Positions 8,231 through 32,185 of a stretch of 64,000 nucleotides of DNA are shown piece by piece. Source of the stretch: an uncultured virus (IMG/VR IMGVR_UViG_3300025610_000002) (Duplodnaviria > Heunggongvirae > Uroviricota > Caudoviricetes); the IMG/VR virus record IMGVR_UViG_3300025610_000002; one strand, written 5' to 3'. The notes below the pieces were generated by a model. The model did not search any database. It saw only the letters and a program-made list of their open reading frames with translations, and was not told the DNA's origin. The translations under genes and the position numbers were made by a program. Positions within the stretch are counted from its first letter, which is position 1. Each line of letters starts with the position of its first letter.

Positions 8231-8497
8231 ATGTGGGCAGATGAACTACGGAAGAAAGACCCGTTGGAGAGTGTAGCCGAAACAATTGGCAAGATTGCTC
8301 ATTTGTTCACGATGGGGCCATTGCCCAATTTACTTGAAAAATTGAATAAGGGTTTGAGTGAGGAGGCCTATTACGAATTAGAAGGAATGGGGCTTAATGA
8401 TTACATAGAATCCTTTCTAGTTGAGATGGAGAAAGCCAAAATGAGCGTTATTAAAATACAAACTTTGGTGGAAGGTTTTGACTACTTTGACGAGTGA
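8231..8497 (+). CDS. Hypothetical protein with variant N-terminal W-tag (MWADELRK)
   Basis: AGGTGG RBS; tag-like start. Confidence 0.75.
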   Translation: MWADELRKKDPLESVAETIGKIAHLFTMGPLPNLLEKLNKGLSEEAYYELEGMGLNDYIESFLVEMEKAKMSVIKIQTLVEGFDYFDE

Positions 8498-8521
8498 TTT
8501 GAGAAACTTTAGGTGAGCATT

Positions 8522-8734
8522 ATGTGGAAAGAAATTATTAAAAGAAACCCTCCAAACTGTTCTCATTGTAATGTCTATATGACTCCACAAGAAACACGCA
8601 GATACAAGAATAGATGTTCTCTTTGTAATAATGCGATTGAGCATTCCGAAAGAACAGGAAAGGAAATTCCGAATACTCATCAGCCTTCAAGACAATATGG
8701 TGAAGAAGGCTATACAGGAAAAGATTTTAGGTGA
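8522..8734 (+). CDS. Zinc-finger protein with N-terminal tag (MWKEIIK)
   Basis: AGGTGA RBS; CSHC...CSLC. Confidence 0.8.
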   Translation: MWKEIIKRNPPNCSHCNVYMTPQETRRYKNRCSLCNNAIEHSERTGKEIPNTHQPSRQYGEEGYTGKDFR

Positions 8735-8738
8735 TATT

Positions 8739-8771
8739 ATGTGGAAAGATACAATTAGAAAGGACTACTAG
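8739..8771 (+). CDS. 10-aa tag-only micro-ORF MWKDTIRKDY
   Basis: AGGTGA RBS at the usual spacing, ATG TGG AAA GAT ACA ATT AGA AAG GAC TAC TAG. Confidence 0.5.
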   Translation: MWKDTIRKDY

Positions 8772-8790: not shown

Positions 8791-9189
8791 ATGGATTGGA
8801 AAGAATACGGAGCAATGTTGCTTAAAGCGGAAGACAGTCACAAGGCTAGAAAAGGCACGATTAGGAAAAACGAGGTTTCGCCTTTGGCAAGAAAAGCATT
8901 TTCTATGCTTGAGGAATCGCTCGCATACATGAGAGAAACCTATCATGAAACTAAAGACAAGCGTTTCTTGAAGTTGTCCGAGGATATAGGAGCGTTGTAT
9001 GATAGTGCTTTCCCCGAAATGGGTGACTTATACGATTTCCGAAAGTCTTGCACTCAAAAAGCAGGTTGTTCCTGTGAAGAGTGTGTTGGAAAGGCTCTTA
9101 GCGACAAGCAACAGGAGATTGCAGAAATGGCTCCACCAAAGGACAAGATTGACGGTGCTGATTTCGCCGCTTTGAGAGAGAAGAGGTGA
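8791..9189 (+). CDS. Hypothetical head-associated protein (MDWKEYGAMLLKA)
   Basis: GAGGTGA RBS; repeated xxK-[AS] sites; C-terminal KDKIDGADFAALR EF-hand-like peptide. Confidence 0.8.
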   Translation: MDWKEYGAMLLKAEDSHKARKGTIRKNEVSPLARKAFSMLEESLAYMRETYHETKDKRFLKLSEDIGALYDSAFPEMGDLYDFRKSCTQKAGCSCEECVGKALSDKQQEIAEMAPPKDKIDGADFAALREKR

Positions 9190-9194: not shown

Positions 9195-10187
9195 ATGTGG
9201 AAGGAGATTTTGAAAGGAAGAGGATTGATTGACCCTGAAAAAATTAAGGATGCTTTGAATTTTGAGAGAGAGCCTAGATTTGCGGGAAGTAAAGGGCAGA
9301 TACCTAAATTTTACCGTCACGGTGAAGAATCAGAATACGCTAATTTAACGGATTCTAACCTCTTAGATGTTGAATTTGAGGGGAGGGAAATTAGAGTTAA
9401 AGGTGACATTACAGTAGATGGTGAAACTATATCATTTACTGCCTCCCAAAGACTACCTAAACCATTAGCCGCTATGAGTAATCTCCCTTATAATCTGAGG
9501 CCCTTTCAAATTTCTTCTATTGATATTCCAAAGAAACTTTTGGAGGACGATAAAGAAGGAGATTTTGAGTATGAGATAAGGCAATTTATTGGGGATAACT
9601 TAGCAGAGTATTTCAATGGGTTTTTCCGATATTTTGAGAAGGATTTGAAATACGAATACCCAAATTTCTTTAGAACTAGTGAAGGTCTTCGTAGTGGTAA
9701 AGAGGATGATTACGGGAATGTTCGTTATGATAGAAGAAGCAAGCAACAGAGTTTCAAAGATGTTTTGCGAAAGCCGGACTCTTCCAATGTGAGAGAATTC
9801 AATGAAGTCATGTCCGACGCCTACAAGTATATCAAGGCACTTCCCGTTACTAAGTTGAAAGCACTCATCAAGAGAGGCATTGTGAAGGAAATTGAGAATC
9901 CCGAGGAGGAATACAAATATCAAGTTTTGAAGAGAAACCACATGATTGATGGTATGCCCATTGTTTTATTCTTTGATGAAGCCTTGTGGAGTGGCGGTGA
10001 AGAGTATGTCTTTGAAGTTACAGACGACCAAGGCACTTATGACCTGAACCTTTACGCTCGGTTTGATTTTGATGATGTAAACCGGAGCAATATTACTTCA
10101 AAGGAGCGGCAAAAACTCATTGATAATGCTAAGAAGTTCATGAAAATGTCACCGGAAAGCATCATTGAAGCCATTCTTAGGTCGTGA
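9195..10187 (+). CDS. Hypothetical protein with N-terminal tag (MWKEILK) and internal tag copy
   Basis: GAGGTGA RBS; internal SFKDVLRK at 9750-9773. Confidence 0.85.
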   Translation: MWKEILKGRGLIDPEKIKDALNFEREPRFAGSKGQIPKFYRHGEESEYANLTDSNLLDVEFEGREIRVKGDITVDGETISFTASQRLPKPLAAMSNLPYNLRPFQISSIDIPKKLLEDDKEGDFEYEIRQFIGDNLAEYFNGFFRYFEKDLKYEYPNFFRTSEGLRSGKEDDYGNVRYDRRSKQQSFKDVLRKPDSSNVREFNEVMSDAYKYIKALPVTKLKALIKRGIVKEIENPEEEYKYQVLKRNHMIDGMPIVLFFDEALWSGGEEYVFEVTDDQGTYDLNLYARFDFDDVNRSNITSKERQKLIDNAKKFMKMSPESIIEAILRS

Positions 10188-10191: not shown

Positions 10192-10623
10192 TTGTCTTGG
10201 AAAAACAATCTCCGTATTATCAAGGCTACAGAGGATAGTTTCTTCTCTTTTACCTCTAGAGATGGGGGTAGAGTTGTTTCCATTTACATTGATGGGAATT
10301 ACGAAGTGGACGATTACGACATTAAGGTGAATTCCCAACATGGTCTTGAAGGAAACAAATACTACGAGCAGGTTTCTAGTATTGAAGGACGAATTGATTT
10401 CTATGAAACCTTTGATGATGAGGACGGCGATGTGATTTCTCATGAGTTTAAGATTGATGGGAAGGAAATTGAGGCGAATTACAAGGTTGAGTTGACCGAG
10501 ATTGGCCAAAACGCAGTCTTTGTTTTGGAAATGGGCATTGATACAGTTGATTTGGACTTTAGAGTTGAAGGTAAGAGCCTCATTTTGAAGTCTGCAAGCG
10601 TTGGTTTTACGGCTGAGAACTGA
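10192..10623 (+). CDS. Acidic beta-rich hypothetical protein (MSWKNNLRIIK)
   Basis: TTG start after GTGA; tag variant. Confidence 0.75.
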   Translation: MSWKNNLRIIKATEDSFFSFTSRDGGRVVSIYIDGNYEVDDYDIKVNSQHGLEGNKYYEQVSSIEGRIDFYETFDDEDGDVISHEFKIDGKEIEANYKVELTEIGQNAVFVLEMGIDTVDLDFRVEGKSLILKSASVGFTAEN

Positions 10624-10879: not shown

Positions 10880-11461
10880 ATGCCTCGCTGGTTTGAAATT
10901 CTAAAAAAAGTGGAATTGATGAGTGAAAACGAGGCTTCAACGCAAATGGAGGCCTTTACGAGAGCCGTTGAGCGTGGTTATCCTTCTGTTATCACTCCAT
11001 TGACCTTGGTAGCGAAGGTAAAGGACGGAAAAGTGCTTGGTTTTACCTCTTTTAGTGACATGGGGAAGTTTTTCTTCGTGGGTTCGTCTTTGGTTTCGCC
11101 CGAAGCGAGAGGAACGGGGATTTATGGCGAGGTTATTCGGTATAGGGACACTCAAACGGGTGGAAAACCGAGAATTACGCTCATTGGGGCAAAAAAACCG
11201 GAGCATATTGCGACAGTATCCAAGGTTATTGAGCGTAACAATGGCGTTAAGGTTAATTCGTATGAACAAGTGCGTGACATTATGGACGAAAGCACTTACA
11301 ACCAAATGAGAGTGCTTCCTATGTATCGTTATGACGCTCTTGGCGGTAGTCAAGATGTGGAAAAGGTGGCCGGAGCGGTAACTACATCAAGTGCGGCTCA
11401 TTCACATCTCTTTAGGCCAACTTACGGCGGTCGTCGTAAGCGGAGAAAGAAGGAGGACTGA
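10880..11461 (+). CDS. GNAT-family acetyltransferase-like protein with tag (MPRWFEILK) and basic C-terminal tail
   Basis: VSPEARGTGIYG resembles GNAT motif A (V.P..RG.G); VKDGKVLGF strand; C-terminal GGRRKRRKK. Confidence 0.7.
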   Translation: MPRWFEILKKVELMSENEASTQMEAFTRAVERGYPSVITPLTLVAKVKDGKVLGFTSFSDMGKFFFVGSSLVSPEARGTGIYGEVIRYRDTQTGGKPRITLIGAKKPEHIATVSKVIERNNGVKVNSYEQVRDIMDESTYNQMRVLPMYRYDALGGSQDVEKVAGAVTTSSAAHSHLFRPTYGGRRKRRKKED

Positions 11462-11463: not shown

Positions 11464-12459
11464 ATGGCGAAGAAGGTGCAGAAGGTTACGGCGAAGGTCG
11501 GGGACGCTACTGTTACTCGTAGTGGTTCCATTACTTTCCCGGAGAAATACAAGAAGTGGGAGTCCACTTGTCGTAGTTTAGGGCCGGGTTCCATTGGTGG
11601 TAAGGTCAATCTTTTGACTTGGTTGAAGCGGCACGGTAAGCCCCGAAGAAAGGGGCCAAACTCAAACGATGGTAGTAGCGGTATGGCGGTTACTCTTCAA
11701 AACATCAATCGTATTTTGGAAAGCAGGCAGAATGGGATTTACGAAGAGGATGATGTTTTCTCCTTCAAGGATATTCTAGAAGAAATGGAAGAATATAATG
11801 CAGAGGGTAGTAATCTCAATCCTTCCAACATTCCCTTTACCACTTATCCCGTTGACTCCGATGGAGATAGAATTCCGGATTCGGACCCAAAAACTGTTTT
11901 TGGTCACTATTTGACGCCCTACTTCTATGGTAAGTATGGGTCCGATGGCGTTCCTTCTCAAGAAGCCGCCGCAGAATTCTTCTCTGCGAACAAGAACGAG
12001 GCCAATCCTCCCATCAAGCAAGCCATGTTTGGCGGTTCATTGTTCCCTGCTGGAACCGATTTGTATTCCATTATTCAGTTGGCCATCAAAGAGATTGAGG
12101 ATTTACAGTATGACTTGGAGATTCGTTCCGGTCGTTCTCCTGTGGGATTGGTGAATGTTCCTTCGTTTAGAAAGAAGTTGGGACAGGCTATCAACTCATC
12201 TTTGGTTGACGGTAAAATCAGCATTAGTGGTGTCAAGGGCAAGTTGGAAGGTATTCGTTTCCCTATTGCTACTGAGAAGGAGCAACAATTCGTGGCTGAA
12301 TACTCCAAGACGAAGAACATTGCAGGTGACTTCAAGGCTTTCAAGTTGGTTTCAATGACGCCTGCAAACACGAAGCGTTTGATTGAAACTTACATGGCGA
12401 CGGGTAAGGGCAAAGAGCGTGATATTGTCAAGTCGTGGGTTGATTTGGTGAGAGTATGA
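11464..12459 (+). CDS. Hypothetical protein with C-terminal tag-like motif (IVKSWVDLVRV)
   Basis: 331-aa ORF, GGAGG RBS. Confidence 0.85.
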   Translation: MAKKVQKVTAKVGDATVTRSGSITFPEKYKKWESTCRSLGPGSIGGKVNLLTWLKRHGKPRRKGPNSNDGSSGMAVTLQNINRILESRQNGIYEEDDVFSFKDILEEMEEYNAEGSNLNPSNIPFTTYPVDSDGDRIPDSDPKTVFGHYLTPYFYGKYGSDGVPSQEAAAEFFSANKNEANPPIKQAMFGGSLFPAGTDLYSIIQLAIKEIEDLQYDLEIRSGRSPVGLVNVPSFRKKLGQAINSSLVDGKISISGVKGKLEGIRFPIATEKEQQFVAEYSKTKNIAGDFKAFKLVSMTPANTKRLIETYMATGKGKERDIVKSWVDLVRV

Positions 12460-13109
12460 GAAGAAAGAGTTGCGCCTTTTGTCAACACGAAGATGTTGAT
12501 GAGTTAGAGCGAGCCTTGGATGCTTGTGAAATCTCTTGCGATACTTTGGACGAGCAAGAAGGATGGCGTAGCGGGACTTCTGCCCAACACCAAAGAAACC
12601 ACATGGAGGCTTTTGCGGCAAGTAGCAACCCCAAGTGCAACTTCTGTGTTGACCCCATGCGAAAGCAATACGAGGTGGGTCTTAGCGACGGTAAATTGGA
12701 AACCTCTGTTGTGGCTGATATGCTGAGTGTTTCCAAACAACAGGTTCAGCGCCACATGAAGCACCACTTGGCTCCCATTGTGCAGGAGTCAGCCGCTACT
12801 ATCATCGCTAAGAAAGAGGTCAATGAGGTTGACATGTTGGCTAACAACCTTGAGGTGCTTGATGGCAAACTTACAGAGATTGCTTCAAGGGATGATTTGG
12901 ATTCCAAAGAGTTGGATGCTTTGGTTAAATTAGCGAGAGAGATTCGTGAGTCATTGAAATACATGATGGAGTTTAAGGGCAAACTTGTGCATAAGCGTCA
13001 AGATACTATTATCGTTGCACAGATGCAAATTGTCCAAGAGGTTCTAGCACAAGGCCATCCGGAAGTTTGGCTTGATGTTAAGAAGAAGATGCAGGAGAGA
13101 TTGCAATGA
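12456..13109 (+). CDS. Tandem zinc-finger/HTH plus coiled-coil protein, possible terminase small subunit
   Basis: Two repeats CxxC...HxxxH (CAFC..HQRNH; CNFC..HMKHH) and a C-terminal helical region; lies upstream of TerL; TerS role is inference. Confidence 0.55.
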   Translation: MRRKSCAFCQHEDVDELERALDACEISCDTLDEQEGWRSGTSAQHQRNHMEAFAASSNPKCNFCVDPMRKQYEVGLSDGKLETSVVADMLSVSKQQVQRHMKHHLAPIVQESAATIIAKKEVNEVDMLANNLEVLDGKLTEIASRDDLDSKELDALVKLAREIRESLKYMMEFKGKLVHKRQDTIIVAQMQIVQEVLAQGHPEVWLDVKKKMQERLQ

Positions 13110-13312
13110 GTTGGAAAGATATTGTGAAGGAAGATTATCCCGAAATTGTTTGGACAGACGAAAAGAAAATTAGTGCATGGGTTGATGGGAGAGGCCCATA
13201 TACCAAAGAATCAATCGCCACAGAATTAAAAAGAATAGGAACTTACGACAAAAGAAAGGAATTTATTTCTGTTCGGGGTGGACAAATCCCTACTGAATCG
13301 GCGTGGGAATAG
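13106..13312 (+). CDS. Small tagged protein (MSWKDIVK)
   Basis: ATG overlaps the previous stop. Confidence 0.75.
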   Translation: MSWKDIVKEDYPEIVWTDEKKISAWVDGRGPYTKESIATELKRIGTYDKRKEFISVRGGQIPTESAWE

Positions 13313-13563: not shown

Positions 13564-13574
13564 GAGAGATTGCA

Positions 13575-13836: not shown

Positions 13837-14001
13837 ATGAAGTGGATTGAAGTTGTCAAGGGAAAGGGTGTTGTGGCCTATAGCGGAACTTGCCCTAAGT
13901 GTGGTAGGTTTGCTGAAAACGGAAAACCATGTCCGGCTAATCTTCCAGCAAAGTCTTCGGGTGTTCCTTCTACAAGTGCTTGCCCTATGAAGGTGGAATG
14001 A
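13837..14001 (+). CDS. Small tagged Cys-containing protein (MKWIEVVK, 54 aa)
   Basis: Manual translation; CPKC..C..C; stop overlaps the next start. Confidence 0.7.
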   Translation: MKWIEVVKGKGVVAYSGTCPKCGRFAENGKPCPANLPAKSSGVPSTSACPMKVE

Positions 14002-14204
14002 TGGATTGGAAATCAGTAATCAAGCGGGATACTTTATCCCGACTACAGAAGGAAACCATTGATGGTTTCGTTGCTTCCAAAGACAAGGTAACGGTCCGTG
14101 AGGTTTCACAGAATCTTATGATTAAGTTGGGTTATCAAAACCAAGCAGGAAGAAGGGCCATTGAAGCCTATCTAGAGAACAATTATCCGGAAAAGTTGGA
14201 GTGA
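14001..14204 (+). CDS. Small tagged HTH-like protein (MDWKSVIK)
   Basis: AGGTGG RBS; tag. Confidence 0.75.
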   Translation: MDWKSVIKRDTLSRLQKETIDGFVASKDKVTVREVSQNLMIKLGYQNQAGRRAIEAYLENNYPEKLE

Positions 14205-16063: not shown

Positions 16064-18443
16064 TGAAGACTTTGACTCCTTAAATGTGGATGGCGCAAAG
16101 ATTACTGCTTACTTTGAGATTGAAGTTGGCGGTAGGGCGCTTCCTAGACCTACTCCTATTTTTGAGCCTATCATTGAAAACTACAAGGAAACCGGAAACA
16201 TTCGGTCGGCAATGAAAAAGATGCGGCGTATCATTGTAGCCAAATTAGAAGAGGAAGCCGAATCTCTTGGTCTTGAAGAGGACGAAGATGCAGATGATAT
16301 TAGTGACCGAGTGAATAAAATATTCACAGAACAGTTGGCCCTTGGTCTTCTTCAACCCGAAGTTGCAGATGTTGGAGCGTTACAGAGCAAAGCCAACTAC
16401 GAGAAGATTCTCAACAGTATCTTTTCCGGCGTCCGATACGAGCAGAAGAAAATCACCTTTGAGGTTTTCACAGGACAAAAGATGGAGAGTAGCAAGTTTT
16501 CGCTTTTGTCAAAAGAGGTTCAACCCGAAGACTTGGAAAGAAGATACAAGAAAAAAGAGAAGGAGTTTCCTGTTGATTTTGAGTCTTTGATGGAATATGA
16601 GAATGCGAAAGAGAATTTTGAAGCGGCTAAAGTCGGTGTGCAGAAGGCTTCCGATATGAGGAGCAAAGTTGAGCGTTCTAACATTAAATCAGTTCTTGAG
16701 ATTCGTGACCCTGTTCTTTCTCTTCTCGGTGGGACTTCCAAGACTATCATCACTCGTAAGGATTCCATTTACCGTGGTTGGAAAGAGGTTAGTGGTAAAT
16801 TTGCAGACTTAGAGAAAGCAAATAAAGCCCTCATTGCTAAATTTAAATCTCCTAACGCTCAAGAGAAGAAATTCAAAGAGGTAGCAGAAAAGTTAGAGAA
16901 TTATGTTGAGGAATATTCTCAGCAAGCGGTTCCTGTTAAAGAAAAGGAGCGGGTGGCTCTTGACCTCATTTTTACATTCTTGAAGAAGTATGGTAAGATT
17001 GTAGAAGAAGCCGAGGAAAGAGATTCTACATTAGGCGTAGGTGAGATGGACCTCAGCCAAAAGGATATTCAAGATACCGAACAGGCCTACAACGACAAAG
17101 TTGACCCTATCACCAAGTATTACTTGACGAAGATGCTGGATGGAGTTTTTGTTCCAAAAGCCTCTGCTGGTGAAATCAAAGAAATGATTAGGACTTTCAT
17201 TAGGGAAGACTTGCCTGCTTTGGATACCGATGATTTCAACTCTTTAGACCGTTTCATTAATGATATTCCCGATATTGATGTTTACAAGGGTGAAGCCTTC
17301 TTACCCGTGCAGTTTGCTCCTATGCTCAATGTCAAGGAATTGAAAGATAAAGCAGGACCTATCAACGATAATTACGAAGATTATCTAAGAGCCTTGGGTG
17401 GTTTGATTGAAGAAGGTAGTTACCGAATGGGTTCTTCTACTATCCATAATGTGATTACCGGCGGAACAGATTTCGGCTCGGAAAGAGATTACAGATACTC
17501 TGCTCGTAGCACACCAAGACAAATGGAGTTCCGTGAAACATCTTATGCAGAAGAGTTGAAGGCAGTTCTACAGGCACTCCAAGCCTATCTCTTTACTCCA
17601 ACACAAAACCCTCTACTCTCATTAGGCTACTCTTTCCAAGAAATTAGAAAACCAAAGGAATTCAAGATTCTTTCCGTTTATGCGGCGAACTCTTTGGGTG
17701 AAGAAAACATGTCAACACAGGCAATTTCCTCGTTGTATGATAGATACCAAAAGAGGCCAAGAGCGGCCATGTTCACCAACAAACAATTGAAGGTGCTAGA
17801 AACCTTCTTGGTTGGTCTTCGTAGAAACTTTACCTTTGATGCTATGGAAAAGAATCTAGAAGCAGTCTATCAATCCGTAATCAAACCCGTTTACAGAAAA
17901 GCCGGTAGTGGTTTCCTTGACCGAACTCACAGGGCTTTTGGTAAGTGGACTGCTAGTATCTTCAACAAGTTGTTTGAGAAGGGAGAATATACGCACCCTT
18001 CGGGTGTCACAAGTGCAGAAGTCAAGAATGCAGAAGTTGAAGTTGATGATGTTCTAGAGTTAGAGGCTTTCCTTGAGTTGAAGGATTTCATTATCAACAA
18101 CAAGGACAGAATCTCTACGAGTAGCACGAAGAAAACACTCAACAACATCATTAATGAATTCAACACTTTGATGAAATCCAAAAAGTTGCGAAACAGAATC
18201 TTGGATGCTCACGACGCTTTCCGTATCTTGAAGGGCTTCCCCATCTACTACGCAAGAGGGGACATTGATTCCGTTACTGATGTTTCATTCATAATTGACA
18301 AAATCCACCATGAGATGGGCCTCAATGTTGTTGCTACGGACATTGTAAAAATGGTTGAAGAGGTTGACTCCTTCGCTAACATCGCCACAGAAGTTGGTCT
18401 TAGCGAGGAAGTTGTGTATTTCACAAAAGCGCACTTTAGGTGA
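16050..18443 (+). CDS. Large helical hypothetical protein (797 aa), possible internal virion protein
   Basis: Long ORF directly upstream of TerL; C-terminal HTH-like segment (FANIATEVGLSEEVVY). Confidence 0.85.
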   Translation: MRLSDEDFDSLNVDGAKITAYFEIEVGGRALPRPTPIFEPIIENYKETGNIRSAMKKMRRIIVAKLEEEAESLGLEEDEDADDISDRVNKIFTEQLALGLLQPEVADVGALQSKANYEKILNSIFSGVRYEQKKITFEVFTGQKMESSKFSLLSKEVQPEDLERRYKKKEKEFPVDFESLMEYENAKENFEAAKVGVQKASDMRSKVERSNIKSVLEIRDPVLSLLGGTSKTIITRKDSIYRGWKEVSGKFADLEKANKALIAKFKSPNAQEKKFKEVAEKLENYVEEYSQQAVPVKEKERVALDLIFTFLKKYGKIVEEAEERDSTLGVGEMDLSQKDIQDTEQAYNDKVDPITKYYLTKMLDGVFVPKASAGEIKEMIRTFIREDLPALDTDDFNSLDRFINDIPDIDVYKGEAFLPVQFAPMLNVKELKDKAGPINDNYEDYLRALGGLIEEGSYRMGSSTIHNVITGGTDFGSERDYRYSARSTPRQMEFRETSYAEELKAVLQALQAYLFTPTQNPLLSLGYSFQEIRKPKEFKILSVYAANSLGEENMSTQAISSLYDRYQKRPRAAMFTNKQLKVLETFLVGLRRNFTFDAMEKNLEAVYQSVIKPVYRKAGSGFLDRTHRAFGKWTASIFNKLFEKGEYTHPSGVTSAEVKNAEVEVDDVLELEAFLELKDFIINNKDRISTSSTKKTLNNIINEFNTLMKSKKLRNRILDAHDAFRILKGFPIYYARGDIDSVTDVSFIIDKIHHEMGLNVVATDIVKMVEEVDSFANIATEVGLSEEVVYFTKAHFR

Positions 18444-18447
18444 TACT

Positions 18448-21725: not shown

Positions 21726-21886
21726 TGGATTTATACCTTGAACAATTTATTGACGATATGGTGAGTAACTTGGAATATAGAAATGGAATTTTCAAGACGA
21801 CTTGGGACTATACCCTTGTTGGTTTGTTCTTTATTGTGGCTCTCCCTATCGTTGGATTTCTTGCACTCAAGGAGCGATTCTTGTGA
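21725..21886 (+). CDS. Small single-TM membrane protein (53 aa)
   Basis: Manual translation MDLYLEQF...YTLVGLFFIVALPIVGFLALKERFL; coupled to both neighbours. Confidence 0.6.
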   Translation: MDLYLEQFIDDMVSNLEYRNGIFKTTWDYTLVGLFFIVALPIVGFLALKERFL

Positions 21887-22062
21887 GTTGGAAGGATATT
21901 CTCAAGAGAAGCGGCTACAAACCTGCTAATCCTTCTCTATGGAGTCGGGCTATTGCGGCGGCAAAAGCCAAATACGATGTTTACCCTTCTGCTTATGCTA
22001 ACGCTTATGCTTCTAAATGGTATAAGAAAAAAGGCGGAACATGGCGCAAGTCTAAGAAGTGA
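21883..22062 (+). CDS. Small basic tagged protein (MSWKDILK; YPSAYANAY..WYKKKGG)
   Basis: GTG start after GGAG; motif recalled from small basic phage proteins. Confidence 0.8.
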   Translation: MSWKDILKRSGYKPANPSLWSRAIAAAKAKYDVYPSAYANAYASKWYKKKGGTWRKSKK

Positions 22063-22067
22063 ATTAC

Positions 22068-22334
22068 ATGTGCGAAACTTATTGGGAAGACATTCTGTAT
22101 AAGGGATGGGTGGCTTGCCCTTGTCCTAAGAAAGGAAGACCAAAACCTTGTGGTAGACCCGATGCTTCGGTAGGAAAGAAAAGAAGATGCCGACCAACAT
22201 GTGACGCTTGCAAAGATTATCCTAGAAGGATGGGTAAGAGAGGAAAACCCCAAAAGAGAAAGGCCGGAACTTTTAGAGCGGAGAAAAGGTATGGACTTCG
22301 TGGTTGGTTAGGAAGAAGAGGTGGTAAAGAATGA
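22068..22334 (+). CDS. Small basic Cys-rich tagged protein (YWEDILYK; KPCGR..CRP)
   Basis: Tag variant; very basic. Confidence 0.75.
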   Translation: MCETYWEDILYKGWVACPCPKKGRPKPCGRPDASVGKKRRCRPTCDACKDYPRRMGKRGKPQKRKAGTFRAEKRYGLRGWLGRRGGKE

Positions 22335-22810
22335 ATTGGAAAGATATTTTGAAGATTTCTCGTTTAGAGTTGGAAATCGCTAGAGAGTATGCGCCGGAAG
22401 AGTTGGCTAAGAGAGGAAGAAAAGTCACTCGTCCGGATTCTAAGAGGCTCAAAGGTCGTCCTATGAGTCGCTTTAATGAAGAAGACGCAAATAGGGCGAA
22501 AAGAGAAAGAGATAAAATTATGAGCAGAGGGAAAGCCCTAAGAGAAGCAGAAGAAGCGAGGCAGAAGGCATTGGAAGAATATCGCAACTCTCCGGAGGCC
22601 AAGAAAACACAGAAATACGGAAAGGTGATGTGTCGGGATTGCGGCTCAGAATACTATGCTGATGATAATTTTAAAGGTAAATGTGATGGCGGGGATAGTT
22701 ACACCAATAATTACGGAGGCAAAGACGGTGGTTGCGGAGCCGAAGGCGATGATATGTTTACTGTTGTTGAACAAGGCGAAATGGGTAATACCGAGAGATA
22801 CATGAGGTAG
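22331..22810 (+). CDS. Tagged basic protein with C-terminal zinc ribbon (MNWKDILK)
   Basis: GAGGTGG RBS; CRDC...C...C. Confidence 0.8.
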   Translation: MNWKDILKISRLELEIAREYAPEELAKRGRKVTRPDSKRLKGRPMSRFNEEDANRAKRERDKIMSRGKALREAEEARQKALEEYRNSPEAKKTQKYGKVMCRDCGSEYYADDNFKGKCDGGDSYTNNYGGKDGGCGAEGDDMFTVVEQGEMGNTERYMR

Positions 22811-22815
22811 TGATT

Positions 22816-23334
22816 ATGTCATGGGAAGATATTCTAAAGCAACCTTCGCTAACCCCTCAAGAGGAACAAGAGATTCAATCCATGATGCGATTTAGAAACA
22901 TGGATAGGGAATCTGCGGAGAAGTCTGTTAGGCGTAAGTATGGTAAGTTGGGGCAAGTGAGGCAACCTGTAGGTAGGTTGACGAAAGAGGATATTCTAAA
23001 GCGAAAGCCCAAGTCCGGCCCTAGAGAAGCCGCTCGTAAGAGAATGAAGGCTAAGGGGCTAAGGTCGTTCAATAAACCGCAACGCCTCAACGATGATTCG
23101 GATAAATCGCACCATGTCATGGCTTCCGAAGGTGGGAAATACAAATACATCAAGTTCGGACAGAAGGGCGTCAAGACCAATCAAACTGCTGGACAACGCA
23201 GAGCCTTCAAGTCACGCCATGCAAAGAATATCAAGCGTGGAAAAATGTCTGCGGCTTATTGGGCTGATAAGGTCAAGTGGAATCCAAGCAAGACCAAAGA
23301 GAAGAAGAACAAGAAATGGCGGAAGGGTTCGTGA
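22816..23334 (+). CDS. Tagged basic protein (MSWEDILK; second TKEDILK) with IKFGQ..RRAFKSRH..SAAYW..W domain
   Basis: C-terminal domain pattern recalled from small basic phage/NCLDV proteins. Confidence 0.8.
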   Translation: MSWEDILKQPSLTPQEEQEIQSMMRFRNMDRESAEKSVRRKYGKLGQVRQPVGRLTKEDILKRKPKSGPREAARKRMKAKGLRSFNKPQRLNDDSDKSHHVMASEGGKYKYIKFGQKGVKTNQTAGQRRAFKSRHAKNIKRGKMSAAYWADKVKWNPSKTKEKKNKKWRKGS

Positions 23335-23714
23335 TGTGGAAAGATGTTTTGAAAGCACCCTTTGATACTAGGGAATATGAAGAGGCTACTTTTTCTATGG
23401 CTGGTTTAAGGAAGTTCCTAGTTGAGTTCCTAGACGAGCGGATTAGAGGCGCAATAAGGACACGGCGAAGGCCAAGAAGAGATGAAGACGGTAGGACATA
23501 TACAGTAACGATAAACAAATACAATCTTAATCGTAAGGATTCGGAAAATTTGGGTAAACTGCTAAGAAAGGACCGAACAGATTTCACCGAGAGAGTGAAA
23601 AAGATATTTAGAGAAGAATACAACATGGTTAATGTCAAATTTAACCGAGGGCCTTGGTATGAAGACCACTATGGGGTTCTTGAGTTTACCTTCCAAATCA
23701 AGGATGGGCTTTGA
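23334..23714 (+). CDS. Tagged hypothetical protein (MWKDVLK)
   Basis: ATG overlaps the previous stop. Confidence 0.75.
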   Translation: MWKDVLKAPFDTREYEEATFSMAGLRKFLVEFLDERIRGAIRTRRRPRRDEDGRTYTVTINKYNLNRKDSENLGKLLRKDRTDFTERVKKIFREEYNMVNVKFNRGPWYEDHYGVLEFTFQIKDGL

Positions 23715-23777: not shown

Positions 23778-25409
23778 ATGGCTGAAAAAAGGCGATTCTC
23801 CTTCACCAATCTCTTCCGTAGGACGACCCCTACACCGGCTGACCGAAAGGTGTTCAATGTCGGAATTCAAGAGCGTGAAAACTCTTACATGATGACGGCT
23901 CCATTGGTTTACAATGTCGTCAATCAGTCCGTTATCGTGCGAACCTGTATTACACAACTCAAGCAGGAGATTTTTCGCCGGGGCTATGTTTGGGAAAAGG
24001 CCTACGAGTCCCGTTGTAATTCTTGTCAAAAGACTCACAAGATGCCCGTAGAGGTTTGTGCTAGATGTGATTCTCCGGATTTGAAGAAGCCCGACCCAAA
24101 GCAATTGGAATATGCCGAGAACTTCATTGAAGGATATGTGAACAAGTCCGAACAGAAATTCATTGATGTGTTCAAGGAGTTGGAAGATGACCTCAACATT
24201 ATGGACGACGCCTACATTGTTCTCGTCAAGGAATACTACTTGGACGGCAATGGAAAAATCCGTATGCATCGCATCAAAGAGTTGTTCCGTGGCGACCCCG
24301 TGACCATGAGCATTTACGCTGATGAGGTTGGGATTAGAGGAACCAAAGGCTTCACTTGTATCAATCACCGTTCGTTCTTAGCCCAAGAACCTCATGAGCC
24401 ATGTCAAGAGTGCCGTGGTCCTGTTTATCCGATTCATTATGTCAACAGAGCAAACGGTGAGGAGCAGTATTTCATTGAGGGAGAGGTTCTTCACTTTAGC
24501 AAATACAGTCCTAGTAGACTCTATGGACACTCGCCCATTCTTACATTGTTTAACAACATCATGACGCTCATTGCTATGGAGAATTATGTCAATTCATCTT
24601 ACACTAAGAGTCGTATGCCGAGAGGCTTACTTGCCGTGCAAACCCGTAACATGGACTCTATGGCGGCATTTTGGCGAGGCGTAAAAGAGCGCATGGAACA
24701 AGACCCCCACTACATTCCTGTTATGGGTATTGAAGCAGAGAACGGTAAGGGTTCTGTTGAGTGGATTAAGTTCATGGATAGCCTCAAAGAAATGGAGTAT
24801 GTTGCAGTTAAGGACGATTTGCGTGACCGTATCTCTGCCTTCTATGGCGTAAGTAAGGTCTTCATGGCCGACAATACAACGAGTGGTGGTTTGAACAACG
24901 AGGGTATGCAAATTCTTGTGACGAATCGTGCCGTGCAAATGGCGCAGAATGTTTACAACAACTATGTCTTCCCCTTCTTGACAAAGCAATTCGGTATTAC
25001 TGATTGGGTCTTGAAACTGCCTCCAAGCGAAGAGGAGGACGAAGTTGCAGTTTTGCGAAAGCGTGAGTTAGAAGTCAACATTGCCGCCTCAACCAAGAAT
25101 CTTGGGTTTGAAGTTGACATGGACGAAGATGGTAACTTTACTTTCTCTAAGCCGGAGCCCAAAGAAGAGGAGGCTCCGGAAGAAGGACCGGTTGAAACCA
25201 ATCCGATGGCCGGTTCCAACATTGACCAAAGAGAATTAGCAGAGGCTCAAATGGCTTCTTTGGAAGAAGGTTCTAAGCCTCAAGAGAACCCGCCAGCCAC
25301 AAGGAATAAAGCGAGGATGAGCGTAGGACCCGATAAGAGGCTTACAGGATTGCCGCAAGATGCTGGTAATCAAAATGTAGATAGGAGAAGCGAAGGGAGA
25401 GTGAGATGA
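23778..25409 (+). CDS. Portal protein with zinc-ribbon insertions
   Basis: DDAYIVL, EVLHF..SPSRLYGHSPI, MPRGLL, ISAFYGV motifs of HK97/PBSX-type portals; CNSC..CARC and C..H..CQEC inserts. Confidence 0.9.
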   Translation: MAEKRRFSFTNLFRRTTPTPADRKVFNVGIQERENSYMMTAPLVYNVVNQSVIVRTCITQLKQEIFRRGYVWEKAYESRCNSCQKTHKMPVEVCARCDSPDLKKPDPKQLEYAENFIEGYVNKSEQKFIDVFKELEDDLNIMDDAYIVLVKEYYLDGNGKIRMHRIKELFRGDPVTMSIYADEVGIRGTKGFTCINHRSFLAQEPHEPCQECRGPVYPIHYVNRANGEEQYFIEGEVLHFSKYSPSRLYGHSPILTLFNNIMTLIAMENYVNSSYTKSRMPRGLLAVQTRNMDSMAAFWRGVKERMEQDPHYIPVMGIEAENGKGSVEWIKFMDSLKEMEYVAVKDDLRDRISAFYGVSKVFMADNTTSGGLNNEGMQILVTNRAVQMAQNVYNNYVFPFLTKQFGITDWVLKLPPSEEEDEVAVLRKRELEVNIAASTKNLGFEVDMDEDGNFTFSKPEPKEEEAPEEGPVETNPMAGSNIDQRELAEAQMASLEEGSKPQENPPATRNKARMSVGPDKRLTGLPQDAGNQNVDRRSEGRVR

Positions 25410-27643: not shown

Positions 27644-27991
27644 ATGTGGGAAAGAATTCTCAAAGAAGATGTGCGTAAGGAATACAGTCCGGTGCTTGAC
27701 ACCTTGGATGAAAAGAAGCGAAAGAAACTCAAGAAGACTCTGCAATCAACAGAGCCTACAGAGTATTTCGGACAAGACTTTACTCGCCTTGGTGAGTTGA
27801 TTGACATGCTCAAGGAATTAGAGTTTGTCAAATCGGACGAAAAACTCAACAAGAGATTCAAGTCCATTGACGAAAGGAACATTGATATGTTGGCCCTCTC
27901 TAGCAAACTCCGTAAGGAATACGAATTGTTGTATCGCCAACTTCGTGAAATCGTTTATCCAAAGAGAAAGGGGGATTTGAGAGATGAGTGA
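27644..27991 (+). CDS. Tagged helical protein (MWERILK)
   Basis: GGAGGAG RBS. Confidence 0.8.
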   Translation: MWERILKEDVRKEYSPVLDTLDEKKRKKLKKTLQSTEPTEYFGQDFTRLGELIDMLKELEFVKSDEKLNKRFKSIDERNIDMLALSSKLRKEYELLYRQLREIVYPKRKGDLRDE

Positions 27992-28208
27992 TACACAAGA
28001 AGAAATGTTGGGTGTGTTGAAGGCATTGGTTGAGCGTATTCAGTCGCTTGAGAAGACCGTGTATCATCAAGACAATTTGTTGATGAAGTCCGGATTCGTT
28101 GTTGCTCAAACTCCTGTTCCTTCTATGAATGCATCTACTATGCCCACAGATGATATGATTCACAAAATGTCGTGGGACGACATTGAGAAATTTGTAAACG
28201 GACGGTGA
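27984..28208 (+). CDS. Small scaffold-like protein with C-terminal tag (MSWDDIEK)
   Basis: N-terminal coiled coil, LMKS and IHKM sites, C-terminus resembles that of the protease/scaffold. Confidence 0.75.
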   Translation: MSDTQEEMLGVLKALVERIQSLEKTVYHQDNLLMKSGFVVAQTPVPSMNASTMPTDDMIHKMSWDDIEKFVNGR

Positions 28209-30987: not shown

Positions 30988-31015
30988 TCAATTAGAGAAC
31001 GAGGAGTTGAGAAGA

Positions 31016-32185
31016 ATGTCTTCCATCGTTAAGGCTGAAACTCATGAGGATTTCAAAATCATCAAGAGCGACAAACTAATGATTGGGGGATATGCTTCTA
31101 TTGAAATGGTGGACAAGCAAAACGACCTCATTACCCTAGAGTCATTGAAAGAAGCCGTTAAAAAATTCATGGAGCAGAAGAGTTTTCGGAATGTAATGAC
31201 CAATCACTCAAATGTTCAAGTCGGAGAAGTAATTGACAGTTACAGAGATACAAGCGGGAGGCTATGGAAAACAGAAGTGGATGATGTTGGCTTCTTCGTA
31301 GTGATTAAACTCCGTGATGATATTGAAAAAGCAAAAGAAATTGGACGAGGCATTCGCAAAGGAACATTGAGGTCTTTTAGCATAGGAGGACAGGCGCTAC
31401 AGAAAGTGAAAAAGCGAAGTGAAGAGTTGGGCGAATACAACGAGATTAGCAAACTTGAACTTCATGAAGTGACCATCTGTGAAAAAGGAATCAACCCCGA
31501 AGCGAAATTTGACATTTTGAAACAACAAAAGGTGAAAGACATGACGAAATTGGAAAAAGCATTGGCGGAATTGGACACTCTTCTCGCAGAAGTGAACACT
31601 CTCCGTAAGGAAGAAGAAGAAGAACCCGCTATGGAAAACATGGGCGGAGAAGAAGAAATGATGGACATTGAAGCCTACGAGCGAGCAGAAAAGGGCGCAA
31701 AGCCTACTGTTGACGGTGGCTCTTTGGAAACCGGCGAGCCAGCAGACCTCGTTGTTGTGTCCGGTGGCCGACCAACCGGTTCCTCTCAAGCCGCAGAGGA
31801 AGGTCAGGTTAGCAAAGCCTTTGACAACGCTGAATTTGGAACGCTCAACCTCTCCAATGAGAACATTGAGAAGGCTTACGCACAATTCCGTGCCGAGCAG
31901 ATGGAAGAGTTGGCTCTCAAGAACCTTGAGTCCACCTTCGCTAAGAGATTTGAGGCTGAGATGGCTAGCCGTGAAGAAATGGTTGCTAAGTCGGAATACG
32001 ATGCTCAGTCCGAGATTGCTTCTCTCCGAGAGCAATTCTCTTCGCTCCGCAAGTCGTTAGAGAACGGCGCACAAGAAATTCGCAAGGCTAACGAAGCCGC
32101 CCAAGAAACCACGACCCTTTCCTTGGATGAGGTCGCTGAAATGTCTTGGAGCGACATTCACAAGATGGCCAGCGGAAACTATTGA
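31016..32185 (+). CDS. Prohead protease (HK97/XkdF-like) fused to scaffold
   Basis: IGGYASIEMVDKQND, MTNHS..VG, GTLRSFSIGG, LHEVTICEKGINP; acidic coiled-coil C-terminal half; directly upstream of MCP. Confidence 0.9.
   Translation: MSSIVKAETHEDFKIIKSDKLMIGGYASIEMVDKQNDLITLESLKEAVKKFMEQKSFRNVMTNHSNVQVGEVIDSYRDTSGRLWKTEVDDVGFFVVIKLRDDIEKAKEIGRGIRKGTLRSFSIGGQALQKVKKRSEELGEYNEISKLELHEVTICEKGINPEAKFDILKQQKVKDMTKLEKALAELDTLLAEVNTLRKEEEEEPAMENMGGEEEMMDIEAYERAEKGAKPTVDGGSLETGEPADLVVVSGGRPTGSSQAAEEGQVSKAFDNAEFGTLNLSNENIEKAYAQFRAEQMEELALKNLESTFAKRFEAEMASREEMVAKSEYDAQSEIASLREQFSSLRKSLENGAQEIRKANEAAQETTTLSLDEVAEMSWSDIHKMASGNY
31541..32185 (+). CDS. Nested in-frame scaffold protein (internal start)
   Basis: AAGGTGA RBS immediately upstream of in-frame ATG MTKLEKAL at the protease/scaffold boundary. 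Confidence 0.55.
   Translation: MTKLEKALAELDTLLAEVNTLRKEEEEEPAMENMGGEEEMMDIEAYERAEKGAKPTVDGGSLETGEPADLVVVSGGRPTGSSQAAEEGQVSKAFDNAEFGTLNLSNENIEKAYAQFRAEQMEELALKNLESTFAKRFEAEMASREEMVAKSEYDAQSEIASLREQFSSLRKSLENGAQEIRKANEAAQETTTLSLDEVAEMSWSDIHKMASGNY

What the first reader, a model, noticed from the sequence alone, without database searches (positions are those of the whole stretch)
8231..32185. Shared 8-residue tag (M-x-W-x-x-I-L-K) on about 21 unrelated head-module proteins, matching the scaffold C-terminus: candidate capsid cargo-loading system
Seen: ORFs at 8231 (MWADELRK), 8522 (MWKEIIK), 8739 (MWKDTIRK), 8791 (MDWKEYGAMLLK), 9195 (MWKEILK), 10192 (SWKNNLRIIK), 10636 (WQGEILR), 10880 (WFEILK), 13106 (MSWKDIVK), 13575 (MTWKAIIK), 13837 (MKWIEVVK), 14001 (MDWKSVIK), 21219 (MSWEDILK), 21883 (SWKDILK), 22068 (YWEDILYK), 22331 (MNWKDILK), 22816 (MSWEDILK), 23334 (MWKDVLK), 25409 (MNWKNILK), 25896 (MSYMDILK) and 27644 (MWERILK) share only this peptide. 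Codons vary, so conservation appears to be at the protein level. The same motif ends the protease/scaffold (MSWSDIHK, 32141-32164), a small scaffold-like ORF (MSWDDIEK, 28167-28190) and ORF 11464 (SWVDLVR). I saw it on no early, tail or replication gene. Established: scaffold C-termini bind the inner capsid surface (P22, herpesvirus), T4 internal proteins carry a cleavable N-terminal capsid-targeting sequence, and encapsulins load cargo via short peptides. Inference: the tag mimics the scaffold's capsid-binding helix and loads a variable set of proteins into the head for delivery on infection.
Basis: partly seen in the sequence, partly recalled or inferred. Interest (0 to 1): 0.92.

Follow-up and report, generated by a model that had tools for sequence, protein, structure and literature searches.

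The report
Shared address tag on magrovirus proteins
About twenty unrelated small proteins of an uncultured ocean archaeal virus begin with the same eight-residue peptide, which resembles the tail of the virus's own head-building scaffold and so probably marks them for loading into the virus head, though no virus particle has been examined.

Summary
All 21 listed ORFs carry the peptide at the stated places: 16 score 9.6 bits or more and 5 are weaker or split variants. The window is a magrovirus-like archaeal tailed virus.

- **Lineage-wide:** the tag gives 432 N-terminal hits on the portal strand against 2 on the other, in 80 related contigs.
- **Protein level:** the Leu column uses five codons of both codon boxes.
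- **Carriers:** 482 tagged proteins fall into 143 unrelated families; 142 of 143 representatives have no membrane-like segment.
- **Location:** tagged genes sit only in the gap-free packaging, head and tail gene array, never in the replication module.
- **Scaffold match:** the two best non-N-terminal matches in the whole window proteome are the C-tails of the protease-scaffold fusion and of a small scaffold-like ORF. Each scores 13.6 bits; 7 of 300 shuffles reach that.

These tails always carry His where the tag has Leu. They also occur in distant relatives that lack N-tags.

My best reading is a T4-CTS-like load-and-clip tag for procapsid cargo (confidence 0.5). This scan has noted similar shared tags on other phages.

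The parts
8231..8497 (+). ORF 88 aa, weak tag variant MWADELRK; first gene of the rightward array
   Evidence: did not match the regex and is not among the top PSSM hits
8522..8734 (+). ORF 70 aa, tag MWKEIIK, Cys4 zinc-ribbon-like body
   Evidence: (18.7 bits)
8739..8771 (+). Tag-only stub MWKDTIRKDY followed by two stops, with its own GGTGA site
8791..9189 (+). ORF 132 aa, split variant MDW-KEYGAM-LLK
   Evidence: split form also seen
9195..10187 (+). ORF 330 aa, tag MWKEILK; no family found
   Evidence: (20.8 bits)
10192..10623 (+). ORF 143 aa (TTG start), split variant SW-KNNLR-IIK
   Evidence: 4.7 bits
10636..10875 (+). ORF 79 aa, weak variant MTNWQGEILR
10880..11461 (+). ORF 193 aa, tag MPRWFEILK, basic C-end
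   Evidence: (19.9 bits)
11464..12459 (+). ORF 331 aa with a Leu-type tag at its C-end (SWVDLVR, 12433-12453)
13106..13312 (+). ORF 68 aa, tag MSWKDIVK
   Evidence: 17.4 bits
13575..13826 (+). ORF 83 aa, tag MTWKAIIK
   Evidence: 15.2 bits
13837..14001 (+). ORF 54 aa, tag MKWIEVVK, zinc-ribbon-like
   Evidence: (10.1 bits)
14001..14204 (+). ORF 67 aa, tag MDWKSVIK
   Evidence: 15.8 bits
21219..21725 (+). ORF 168 aa (TTG start), tag SWEDILK, pI 10.6
   Evidence: (20.7 bits)
21883..22062 (+). ORF 59 aa (GTG start), tag SWKDILK, pI 10.3, phrog_27331 body
   Evidence: (21.5 bits)
22068..22334 (+). ORF 88 aa, MCETYWEDILYK (W at residue 6), Cys-rich, pI 10.3
   Evidence: (9.6 bits)
22331..22810 (+). 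ORF 159 aa, tag MNWKDILK
   Evidence: 21.5 bits
22816..23334 (+). ORF 172 aa, tag MSWEDILK, pI 10.8, phrog_7595 body at residues 73-155; 27 of 32 family members tagged
   Evidence: (20.7 bits)
23334..23714 (+). ORF 126 aa, tag MWKDVLK
   Evidence: 19.6 bits
25409..25666 (+). ORF 85 aa just after the portal, tag MNWKNILK
   Evidence: 20.8 bits
25896..27641 (+). ORF 581 aa, MSYMDILK (Y or F in place of W across its family); start uncertain
   Evidence: (5.6 bits)
27644..27991 (+). Conserved 115-aa helical protein, tag MWERILK. Relatives carry the split form MTW-DYYGEGEDF-ILK. The tag is a low-confidence free N-end in the AF2 model
   Evidence: (16.8 bits)
27984..28208 (+). Small scaffold-like ORF 74 aa with C-tail MSWDDIEK (28167-28190)
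   Evidence: 13.6 bits
31016..32185 (+). Prohead protease (S78) fused to a long helix. C-tail MSWSDIHK at 32141-32164; protease domain ends in invariant F-D-I-L-K at 31508-31522
32197..33528 (+). Major capsid protein, candidate partner of the tails and tags
23778..25409 (+). Portal protein (context; untagged)
18355..19875 (+). Large terminase (context; untagged)

Best explanation
The peptide M-x-W-[KQE]-[DE]-I-L-K is a protein-level short linear tag. It sits on a flexible end, usually the N-end, of many unrelated, soluble, mostly small accessory proteins. Their genes are inserted in the late packaging/head gene array of magroviruses.

I read it as a capsid-targeting and processing tag of the kind phage T4 uses (the CTS). 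The proposed steps, all inferred:
1. During head assembly the tag engages the same machinery that recognises the C-tails of the protease-scaffold fusion and of the small scaffold-like protein. That machinery is either the inner face of the HK97-fold capsid protein or the substrate groove of the S78 prohead protease.
2. The carriers are thereby enclosed in the procapsid.
3. The tag is probably clipped after its near-invariant Lys.
4. The cargo leaves with the DNA at the next infection.

Shown here: the motif exists; it is selected at the protein level; it is modular on unrelated bodies; it is restricted to the late array; and it resembles the scaffold/protease tails. Binding, cleavage, encapsidation and delivery are all inferred.
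For: 1. Protein-level selection. The Leu column uses CTA 85, CTT 53, TTA 53, CTC 45 and TTG 41; I/V and K/R swaps are conservative.

2. Modularity.
- 482 tagged proteins fall into 143 families once the tag is removed, 84 of them singletons.
- The bodies of 14 window carriers are unrelated; the best BLASTP E-value is 0.02.
- Many families are tagged in nearly all members: 33/37, 27/32, 18/18, 16/18, 10/10.

3. Location and likely timing.
- The genes form one gap-free co-oriented array from 8231 to the MCP, with a largest gap of 63 nt.
- In relatives, N-tags lie from -16 to +8 kb around the portal start.
- In five complete genomes they sit only on the portal strand near the structural genes.
- None occurs in the window's DNA-metabolism flanks.

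4. Link to head assembly.
- With a PSSM built from 73 independent N-tags, the two top non-N-terminal hits in about 18,000 window positions are the C-tails of the protease-scaffold and of the small scaffold-like ORF, at 13.6 bits each. The next hit scores 6.7. Only 7 of 300 shuffled proteomes reach 13.6.
- The tail is present in 64 of 66 proteases.
- It persists in distant relatives without N-tags, as expected of an old capsid-assembly element.

5. Clip-site hints.
- Lys is 96-98% conserved.
- The protease domain ends exactly in F-D-I-L-K, or F-x-V-L-K in distant relatives.
- The HK97 maturation site is K103/S104 (PMC10275583, passages).

6. Physical plausibility.
- 142 of 143 family representatives have no membrane-like segment.
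- In the AF2 model of the 27644 protein the tag is a free end with pLDDT below 50 on a helical body.
- 10 of the 20 full-length listed carriers have pI of 9 or more.

7. Precedents.
- T4 CTS (PMC7411985, passages).
- Scaffold C-ends contacting the capsid N-arm, and SaPI1 CpmB competing with the 80alpha scaffold (PMC12749128, passages).
Against: - No test of binding was possible, and no virion proteome exists for these uncultured viruses.
- The scaffold/protease tails always have His where the tags have Leu. They continue with [ML]-[VA], which tags lack. Their position 8 drifts (K/N/S) in a second virus group while the tag keeps Lys. The two motifs may therefore have different readers.
- The tag can be internal in fused proteins. 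Tagged genes also occur after the MCP in one relative, so 'terminal' and 'head module' are not strict.
- Twenty or more cargo species per genome is many for a ~90 kb tailed virus.
- Cargo functions are unknown. Only 1 of 80 family representatives has a Pfam hit, a soluble PAP2-type phosphatase.
- Late timing is inferred from gene order only.
- The AF2 model of the protease is poor (mean pLDDT 50.3), so nothing can be said about where its tail docks.
Confidence: 0.5

Rival explanations
1. Docking motif for a different shared partner, not the capsid. Candidates are a virus-encoded chaperonin (magroviruses carry thermosome/GroEL genes), a host hub protein, or mutual bundling of the amphipathic ends. 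The tag would then organise or regulate the accessory proteins in the cytoplasm.
For: - The motif behaves like a generic short linear motif on a free end.
- It can be internal.
- The Leu-type tags and His-type scaffold tails differ consistently, so they need not share a reader.
- Magroviruses encode chaperonins (PMC5434244, Results section read).
Against: - It does not explain why the best matches outside N-ends are exactly the two proteins that must enter the procapsid.
- It does not explain why tagged genes are confined to the late structural array.
- No chaperonin gene was seen in this window.
Confidence: 0.2
2. Only a recognition/cleavage site of the S78 prohead protease, comparable to the herpesvirus release and maturation sites. 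It would mark proteins for processing or timed destruction, with no role in loading or delivery.
For: - Lys is near-invariant at the last position.
- F-D-I-L-K lies exactly at the end of the conserved protease domain, where homology to distant relatives stops.
- The motif sits 6-11 residues before the C-ends of the protease and the scaffold-like ORF.
- It occurs at internal junctions in fused proteins.
- HK97 cuts after K103 (PMC10275583).
Against: - Removing eight N-terminal residues has no obvious purpose without a targeting role.
- Prohead proteases are, as far as I recall, active only inside procapsids, so substrates must already be inside. That collapses this rival into the best explanation.
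- W stays invariant even when 8-10 residues separate it from ILK. This points to a second function for the W part.
Confidence: 0.1
3. A very short amphipathic membrane-targeting helix. The comparison is with the terminal membrane-targeting sequence of MinD (recalled) and with the W3-containing N-end of frog dermaseptins. It would bring the proteins to the host membrane.
For: - W, I and L fall on one helical face with K, D and K on the other, as the sequence shows directly.
- ALWKDILK-type strings turned up only in dermaseptin antimicrobial-peptide papers. This comes from the listing of 10 of the 11 papers that hold any of the four strings.
- Two small membrane proteins sit in the structural array at 34521-35147.
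Against: - Only three hydrophobic residues and a net charge of +1, which is weak for a membrane anchor.
- The residues after the tag are not consistently amphipathic.
- It does not explain the related tails on the protease and scaffold.
- No membrane is known in tailed archaeal virions (my recall).
Confidence: 0.05
4. A nucleic-acid-level signal: a translation-initiation context, an operator for an RNA-binding repressor, or a recombination cassette that spreads with the ribosome site. The peptide would then be a by-product.
For: - Some neighbouring genes share nearly identical start regions, for example 13106 and 13575 with 31 of 44 nt identical.
- A tag-only stub exists at 8739.
- The motif is fixed relative to the start codon.
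Against: - Leu uses five codons from both codon boxes; Ile uses ATT, ATA and ATC; Lys uses AAA and AAG.
- The median identity of 44-nt start regions is only 18 of 44.
- The motif also works in-frame at C-ends and internally.
- Insertions preserve W and ILK as amino acids.
Confidence: 0.04

Closest known systems
Capsid targeting sequence (CTS) of phage T4 internal proteins IPI-III and Alt
   Same: A short N-terminal peptide shared by otherwise unrelated proteins, which loads them into the prohead and is then cut off by the prohead protease (PMC7411985, passages). As here, a constant tag sits on variable accessory bodies.
   Different: - T4 uses a different protease family and a 10-20 residue tag that binds the scaffolding core (PMC7411985).
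- Here the virus is archaeal and the protease is HK97-type S78.
- The tag is 8 residues and resembles the scaffold/protease tail.
- It is carried by about 20 genes per genome and 143 families overall.
- Loading and cleavage are untested here.
C-terminal capsid-binding ends of scaffolding proteins and prohead proteases (P22, 80alpha, HK97 gp4, herpesvirus), and the scaffold mimic SaPI1 CpmB
   Same: - A short conserved tail shared by the protease and a separate scaffold-like protein, conserved over deep divergence.
- Scaffold C-ends contact the capsid N-arm, and CpmB competes for that site (PMC12749128, passages).
- The HK97 protease C-end as an encapsidation signal is my recall of Duda et al. 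2013. I saw that paper only in reference lists; it is not held.
   Different: In the known cases the tail serves assembly proteins only. Here a near-copy of it sits on the opposite end of a large, variable set of non-assembly proteins.
Encapsulin cargo-loading peptides
   Same: Short terminal peptides direct unrelated cargo into an HK97-fold shell (my recall). Here too the tags are terminal, modular and on soluble proteins.
   Different: This is a genome-packaging virus with portal, terminase, protease and tail. The motif sequence is different, and pocket binding is untested.
Propeptide-bearing ejection proteins of giant phages (SPN3US, phiKZ)
   Same: Many head-internal proteins are processed by the prohead protease at a consensus site (abstracts of PMC7411985 and PMC10052503).
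   Different: No single short shared tag is described in the text I read. The hosts are bacteria and the genomes are jumbo-sized.

Membership tests
T4-type capsid targeting sequence | Short N-terminal peptide shared by otherwise unrelated proteins of one virus | tested here: met
T4-type capsid targeting sequence | Tag ends at the prohead protease's cleavage consensus and is removed | tested here: inconclusive
   Lys is 96-98% conserved and the protease domain ends in F-D-I-L-K. HK97 cuts after K103 (PMC10275583). There are no cleavage data.
T4-type capsid targeting sequence | Carriers are found inside proheads and virions | not testable with these tools
   The viruses are uncultured. I found no virion proteome in the three magrovirus papers I searched.
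T4-type capsid targeting sequence | T4-type prohead protease (gp21 family) and scaffolding core | tested here: not met
   The protease matches Peptidase_S78 (HK97 type) at 40.1 bits, against a cut-off of 21.
Encapsulin cargo-loading system | Terminal peptide on cargo plus an HK97-fold shell protein | tested here: met
   The tags are terminal in most cases. The MCP matches SU10_MCP and the PHROG major head protein. The fold is inferred from family, not from a model.
Encapsulin cargo-loading system | Peptide docks in a pocket on the inner face of the shell protein | not testable with these tools
Encapsulin cargo-loading system | Shell without portal, terminase or genome packaging | tested here: not met
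   Portal, large terminase, tail tube and tail proteins are present.
Scaffold/protease C-terminal capsid-binding tail | Same short tail on the protease and on a separate scaffold-like protein, at the extreme C-end | tested here: met
   64 of 66 proteases and 48 of 79 small ORFs match the regex; the other small ORFs carry variants such as the window's WDDIEK.
Scaffold/protease C-terminal capsid-binding tail | Conserved across diverged relatives together with the MCP | tested here: met
   L082 (MCP 41% identical) ends in SWQDIHFMARGGK. L163/L165 have PWTKVHD and L166 has MTWREVED. The tail is absent from halovirus HVTV-1.
Scaffold/protease C-terminal capsid-binding tail | Tail binds the major capsid protein | not testable with these tools
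   The AF2 protease model is too poor to use.
Magroviruses (marine group II archaeal tailed viruses) | Halovirus-like MCP/portal/protease block, ~90-100 kb marine contigs, DNA ligase and a rich DNA-metabolism set | tested here: met
   - The MCP's only hits among deposited phages are haloviruses and methanogen viruses.
- 389 IMG/VR relatives were found, with contigs up to 96 kb, one with terminal repeats.
- A ligase domain is present.
- The description is from PMC5434244 (Results read).
- No named magrovirus genome was compared directly.

The most novel reading that the evidence does not exclude
Magroviruses run an encapsulin-like cargo-loading system inside a true virus. The N-tag would be a transplanted copy of the scaffold's capsid-binding tail, whose conserved Met could have served as a ready-made start codon. 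It would dock in the same pocket of the HK97-fold capsid protein. The virus could then ship a fast-evolving arsenal of over a hundred protein families into marine group II archaea. That would supply a living intermediate between viral scaffold tails and encapsulin cargo peptides, and a programmable protein-packaging tag for archaeal capsids.
Probability: 0.2. Interest if true: 0.85.

Novelty: new variant of a known kind. Interest (0 to 1): 0.68.

Why it matters
Magroviruses are among the most abundant archaeal viruses in the surface ocean, and most of their genes are unannotated (PMC5434244).

A single eight-residue label that unites about 20 genes per genome, and 143 families across relatives, would give a first functional handle on this dark matter. 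The proteins would be candidate virion-delivered factors acting at the very start of infection of uncultured Poseidoniales.

It would also be the first capsid-targeting tag proposed for an archaeal virus, and for an HK97-type protease/scaffold system. Its direct sequence link between scaffold tail and cargo tag bears on how encapsulin cargo peptides may have arisen.

The idea is directly testable in heterologous expression, because only three parts are needed: MCP, protease-scaffold and tag-reporter.

I found no mention of the motif in three magrovirus papers (term searches). A full-text search for four tag strings found them only in unrelated papers; 11 papers hold at least one string and 10 were listed.

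Tried and rejected
- **Complex prediction of MCP (alignment A1) with the tagged 27644 protein (A2):** No statement on binding follows from this.
- **Whole genome of the window:** not held.
- **AF2 of the protease-scaffold (A3, 55 sequences):** mean pLDDT 50.3. Only a long helix at 281-364 and a short helix over the tail at 378-385 are usable. No inference on intramolecular docking is possible.
- **AF2 of the 27644 protein, then Foldseek against PDB:** only generic four-helix bundles, E-values 0.9 or worse.
- **ESM Atlas for the two largest carriers:** no usable hit.
- **Pfam on 80 of 143 tagged-family representatives (the 80 longest):** 1 hit, PAP2. The other 63 representatives were not scanned.
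- **Loose Pfam on five large window proteins:** nothing credible.
- **Is 25896 a MuF-like head protein?** No similarity to the HVTV-1 'head assembly' protein (E = 0.18).
- **Homologue search for 10880:** only 10 hits, none annotated.
- **Halovirus HVTV-1:** neither N-tags nor the tail motif.
- **This scan's notes on this genome and its look-alikes:** none.
- **Nucleotide-signal reading:** rejected on codon evidence.
- **Common-ancestry reading of the carriers:** rejected because the bodies are unrelated.
- **Tagged PAP2 protein as a membrane protein (which would have argued against packaging):** it has no hydrophobic segment.
Full report
**What the window is**

Pfam and PHROG scans of my gene calls place a complete tailed-virus morphogenesis array on the + strand:
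- large terminase, 18355-19875
- HNH endonuclease, 19882-21222
- portal, 23778-25409
- an 845-aa protein with an ATP-dependent ligase domain, 28450-30987
- S78 (HK97-type) prohead protease fused to a long helix, 31016-32185
- major capsid protein (MCP), 32197-33528
- tail tube, chaperone and large tail proteins further on

The flanks carry DNA-metabolism genes, some on the other strand: UvrD-type helicase, pyrimidine-dimer glycosylase, ERCC4 nuclease and PD-(D/E)XK nuclease.

Among deposited phage genomes the MCP hits only haloarchaeal tailed viruses (24-26% identity) and methanogen viruses. The portal has 389 relatives in IMG/VR, on contigs up to 96 kb. This fits the published description of magroviruses, viruses of marine group II archaea (PMC5434244, Results section read). 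I did not compare with a named magrovirus genome. No whole genome is held for the window.

- With a PSSM trained only on relatives, 16 window ORFs score 9.6-21.5 bits in their first residues.
- Five are weaker or split variants: 8231, 8791, 10192, 10636 and 25896.
- 8739 is a ten-codon stub made of the tag alone.
- A six-frame regex gives 31 hits in the window. Fourteen are starts of + strand ORFs between 8525 and 27647 and two are C-ends.
- No N-terminal hit falls on the 16 minus-strand flank genes, nor on the 24 genes from the MCP onward.

**It is a property of the lineage**

- In 80 portal-related loci, the regex at an ORF start occurs 432 times on the portal strand and twice on the other.
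- W is residue 3 in 319 of 1754 called genes, against a W background of 0.94%.
- In five complete 90-96 kb relatives, a degenerate DNA pattern for W-x-x-I-L-K gives 8-18 hits on the portal strand, 0-2 on the other and 0-1 for a reversed control. All hits lie within about 17 kb of the portal, and none lies in the large replication block.
- A second virus group (MCP 64% identical) carries the tag too: 133 of 1334 called genes.
- More distant relatives (MCP 41-46%) and halovirus HVTV-1 do not.

These counts rest on my own heuristic gene calls and on related, non-independent contigs. After dereplication, 366 of 435 instances remain unique.

**Selection is on the peptide, not on the DNA**

- The Leu column uses CTA 85, CTT 53, TTA 53, CTC 45 and TTG 41. 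Ile uses ATT, ATA and ATC. Lys uses AAA and AAG. Substitutions are conservative (I/V/L, K/R).
- Start regions of 14 window carriers share a median of only 18 of 44 nucleotides. A few neighbours are much closer, such as 13106 and 13575 at 31 of 44, which suggests local copying of the start cassette.

**The carriers are unrelated and variable**

- After removing the tag, 482 tagged proteins from 167 loci and the window fall into 143 families, 84 of them singletons.
- Bodies of window carriers show no significant similarity to each other.
- Within families the tag is nearly always kept: 33/37, 27/32, 18/18, 16/18, 10/10.
- Core morphogenesis proteins (portal, terminase, MCP, ligase-domain protein) never have it.
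- 142 of 143 family representatives lack any membrane-like segment.
- Only 1 of 80 representatives scanned has a Pfam family, a PAP2-type phosphatase with no membrane segment.
- Ten of the 20 full-length listed carriers have pI of 9 or more, and the cluster 21219-23714 is strongly basic.

**Anatomy of the tag**

- The consensus is M-[ST]-W-[KQE]-[DEN]-[IV]-[LI]-K, with Lys at 96-98%.
- In the conserved 27644 family, W is invariant. Most members carry a split form, MTW-DYYGEGEDF-ILK. The window's 8791 and 10192 look like the same kind of split.
- W and ILK therefore behave as two elements.
- The tag also occurs at C-ends of some families (for example ...KKWFEVLKTGK*...PEWKKILRGD*, and the window's 11464 product ...SWVDLVRV*), and internally in fused proteins such as ...ASGYVKKGWKEILKK-DPKKGTG....
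- In an AF2 model of the 27644 protein, the body is a helical bundle (pLDDT about 70-80). Residues 1-12 are a low-confidence free end with a short helix.

**The link to the head-assembly machinery**

- With an 8-column PSSM built from 73 independent N-tags, the two best matches anywhere in the window proteome outside N-ends are the C-tails of the small scaffold-like ORF (KMSWDDIEKF) and of the protease-scaffold (EMSWSDIHKM).
- Both score 13.6 bits and the next hit scores 6.7. A score that high appears in 7 of 300 shuffled proteomes.
- The tail is present in 64 of 66 proteases and, by the same regex, in 48 of 79 small ORFs.
- It is a distinct variant, M-[DS]-W-x-D-I-H-[KN]-[ML]-[VA]. It always has His where N-tags have Leu. 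In the second virus group its position 8 drifts while the tag keeps Lys.
- The tail is older than the tags. A virus with 41% MCP identity ends its 131-aa pre-MCP ORF in SWQDIHFMARGGK. Viruses at about 46% MCP identity end the protease in ...PWTKVHD... or ...MTWREVED..., without any N-tags.
- The conserved Met two residues before W in the tails is not a start codon, yet it mirrors the initiator Met of the tags.

**A second echo**

The conserved protease domain ends exactly in F-D-I-L-K, which is invariant in 55 sequences. The equivalent is F-E-V-L-K or F-Q-V-L-K in distant relatives. Homology to L082 stops there, and the alignment with L165 turns weak and gapped just after it. HK97, the founder of the S78 family, cuts its capsid protein at K103/S104 (PMC10275583, passages).

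**Reading**

The shown facts are these:
- The motif is a protein-level, modular label on free ends of unrelated soluble proteins.
- Their genes are inserted in one gap-free co-oriented late array; the largest gap between 8231 and the MCP is 63 nt.
- The label is related to the tails of the two proteins that must enter the procapsid.

This is the pattern known from phage T4. There, a short N-terminal capsid targeting sequence loads internal proteins and Alt into the prohead and is then clipped (PMC7411985, passages).

Scaffold C-ends contact the capsid N-arm in several phages. A satellite protein, CpmB, competes with the 80alpha scaffold for that site, which is a precedent for mimicry (PMC12749128, passages). 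That the HK97 protease C-end is itself an encapsidation signal is my recall of Duda et al. 2013. I could not read it.

I therefore favour a load-and-clip tag for procapsid cargo (0.5). Two sub-models remain open:
- A protease-groove motif in which the protease-scaffold itself carries the cargo in and then cuts after Lys. The split W...ILK forms, the invariant Lys and the F-D-I-L-K domain end lean towards a composite of address plus cut site.

**Evidence against**

- Binding, cleavage and encapsidation are untested. The complex predictor was unavailable, and the protease model was too poor to show where its tail sits.
- The Leu/His difference may mean different readers.
- Tags can be internal.
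- In relative G005, three tagged genes are inserted after the MCP, between conserved post-head genes. 'Head module' should therefore be read as 'late structural array'.
- Cargo functions are unknown.

**Rivals**

- Another shared partner such as the viral chaperonin (0.2).
- A cut site only (0.1).
- A short membrane-targeting helix (0.05). The string ALWKDILK is the N-end of frog dermaseptins.
- A nucleic-acid signal (0.04), largely excluded.

**Novelty**

- Term searches of three magrovirus papers found no mention of an N-terminal motif: PMC5434244, PMC11706807 and PMC10160649.
- A three-term library search for magroviruses, N-terminal and motif gave three papers. By title and abstract start, none concerns such a tag.
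- The four tag strings occur in 11 held papers. The 10 listed are all on unrelated subjects.
- This scan has noted comparable shared N-terminal tags on several bacterial phages, all read as T4-CTS-like and none tested on particles. I did not test those notes.
- What is new here: the archaeal host lineage, the HK97-type protease/scaffold context, the explicit sequence link between cargo tag and scaffold/protease tail, and the size and turnover of the tagged repertoire.

I class it as a new variant of a known kind.

Noticed in passing
window 8739-8771: A ten-codon ORF made of the tag alone (MWKDTIRKDY, then two stops) with its own GGTGA site. It looks like the remnant of a lost carrier gene, or a free tag peptide.
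   Followed up: partly
window 13086-13129 and 13555-13598: The start regions of two unrelated carriers are 31 of 44 nt identical (AGGAGAGATTGCAATGA.TTGGAAAG). This suggests local copying of the ribosome-site-plus-tag cassette.
   Followed up: partly
window 33367-33384 (MCP residues 391-396): The MCP itself holds a conserved internal W-L-[QSA]-V-[ML]-K (DHLWLQVMKPTQY). It scores 11.2 bits with the 6-column tag PSSM. It could be chance or meaningful.
   Followed up: no
window 31508-31522: The invariant F-D-I-L-K lies exactly where the conserved S78 protease domain ends and homology to distant relatives stops. It may be a self-release site.
   Followed up: partly
L035:4569-5144 and its 15-member family: A tagged protein with a complete PAP2-type phosphatase motif set but no membrane segment. 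It is the only carrier family with a Pfam assignment.
   Followed up: partly
L038:6980-7453, L040:9160-9708, L013:9049-9540 and others: Fused proteins in which a ~45-aa basic domain (PIxKxKxGYxWGSKG...AAYASGYVKK) precedes an internal copy of the tag and the usual body.
   Followed up: partly
L168 (G005:C1:58500-66500), reverse strand: In this complete relative, tagged genes (MWEDILKK..., MWKKILKN..., and a W-Q-D-I-L-K start) are inserted after the MCP, between conserved post-head genes.
   Followed up: yes
window 56462-57343: An HMGL-like (aldolase / pyruvate carboxyltransferase type) domain protein, E = 6.7e-19, sits at the end of the tail array. It may be an auxiliary metabolic gene, although the founding paper reported none.
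   Followed up: no
window 34521-35147: Two small ORFs just after the head genes begin or end in long hydrophobic stretches, read by eye (no hydrophobicity scan was run on them); unusual in a tailed-virus structural module.
   Followed up: no
window 28450-30987: An 845-aa protein with an ATP-dependent DNA ligase domain sits inside the head module, between the scaffold-like ORFs and the protease.
   Followed up: no
literature: The string WKDILK is the conserved N-end of frog dermaseptin antimicrobial peptides (ALWKDILK...), a membrane-active amphipathic helix with Trp at position 3. It is probably convergence.
   Followed up: no
window 6096-6443: A Kyanoviridae Gp96-like domain protein (E = 3e-9) lies in the flank next to the DNA-repair genes.
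   Followed up: no
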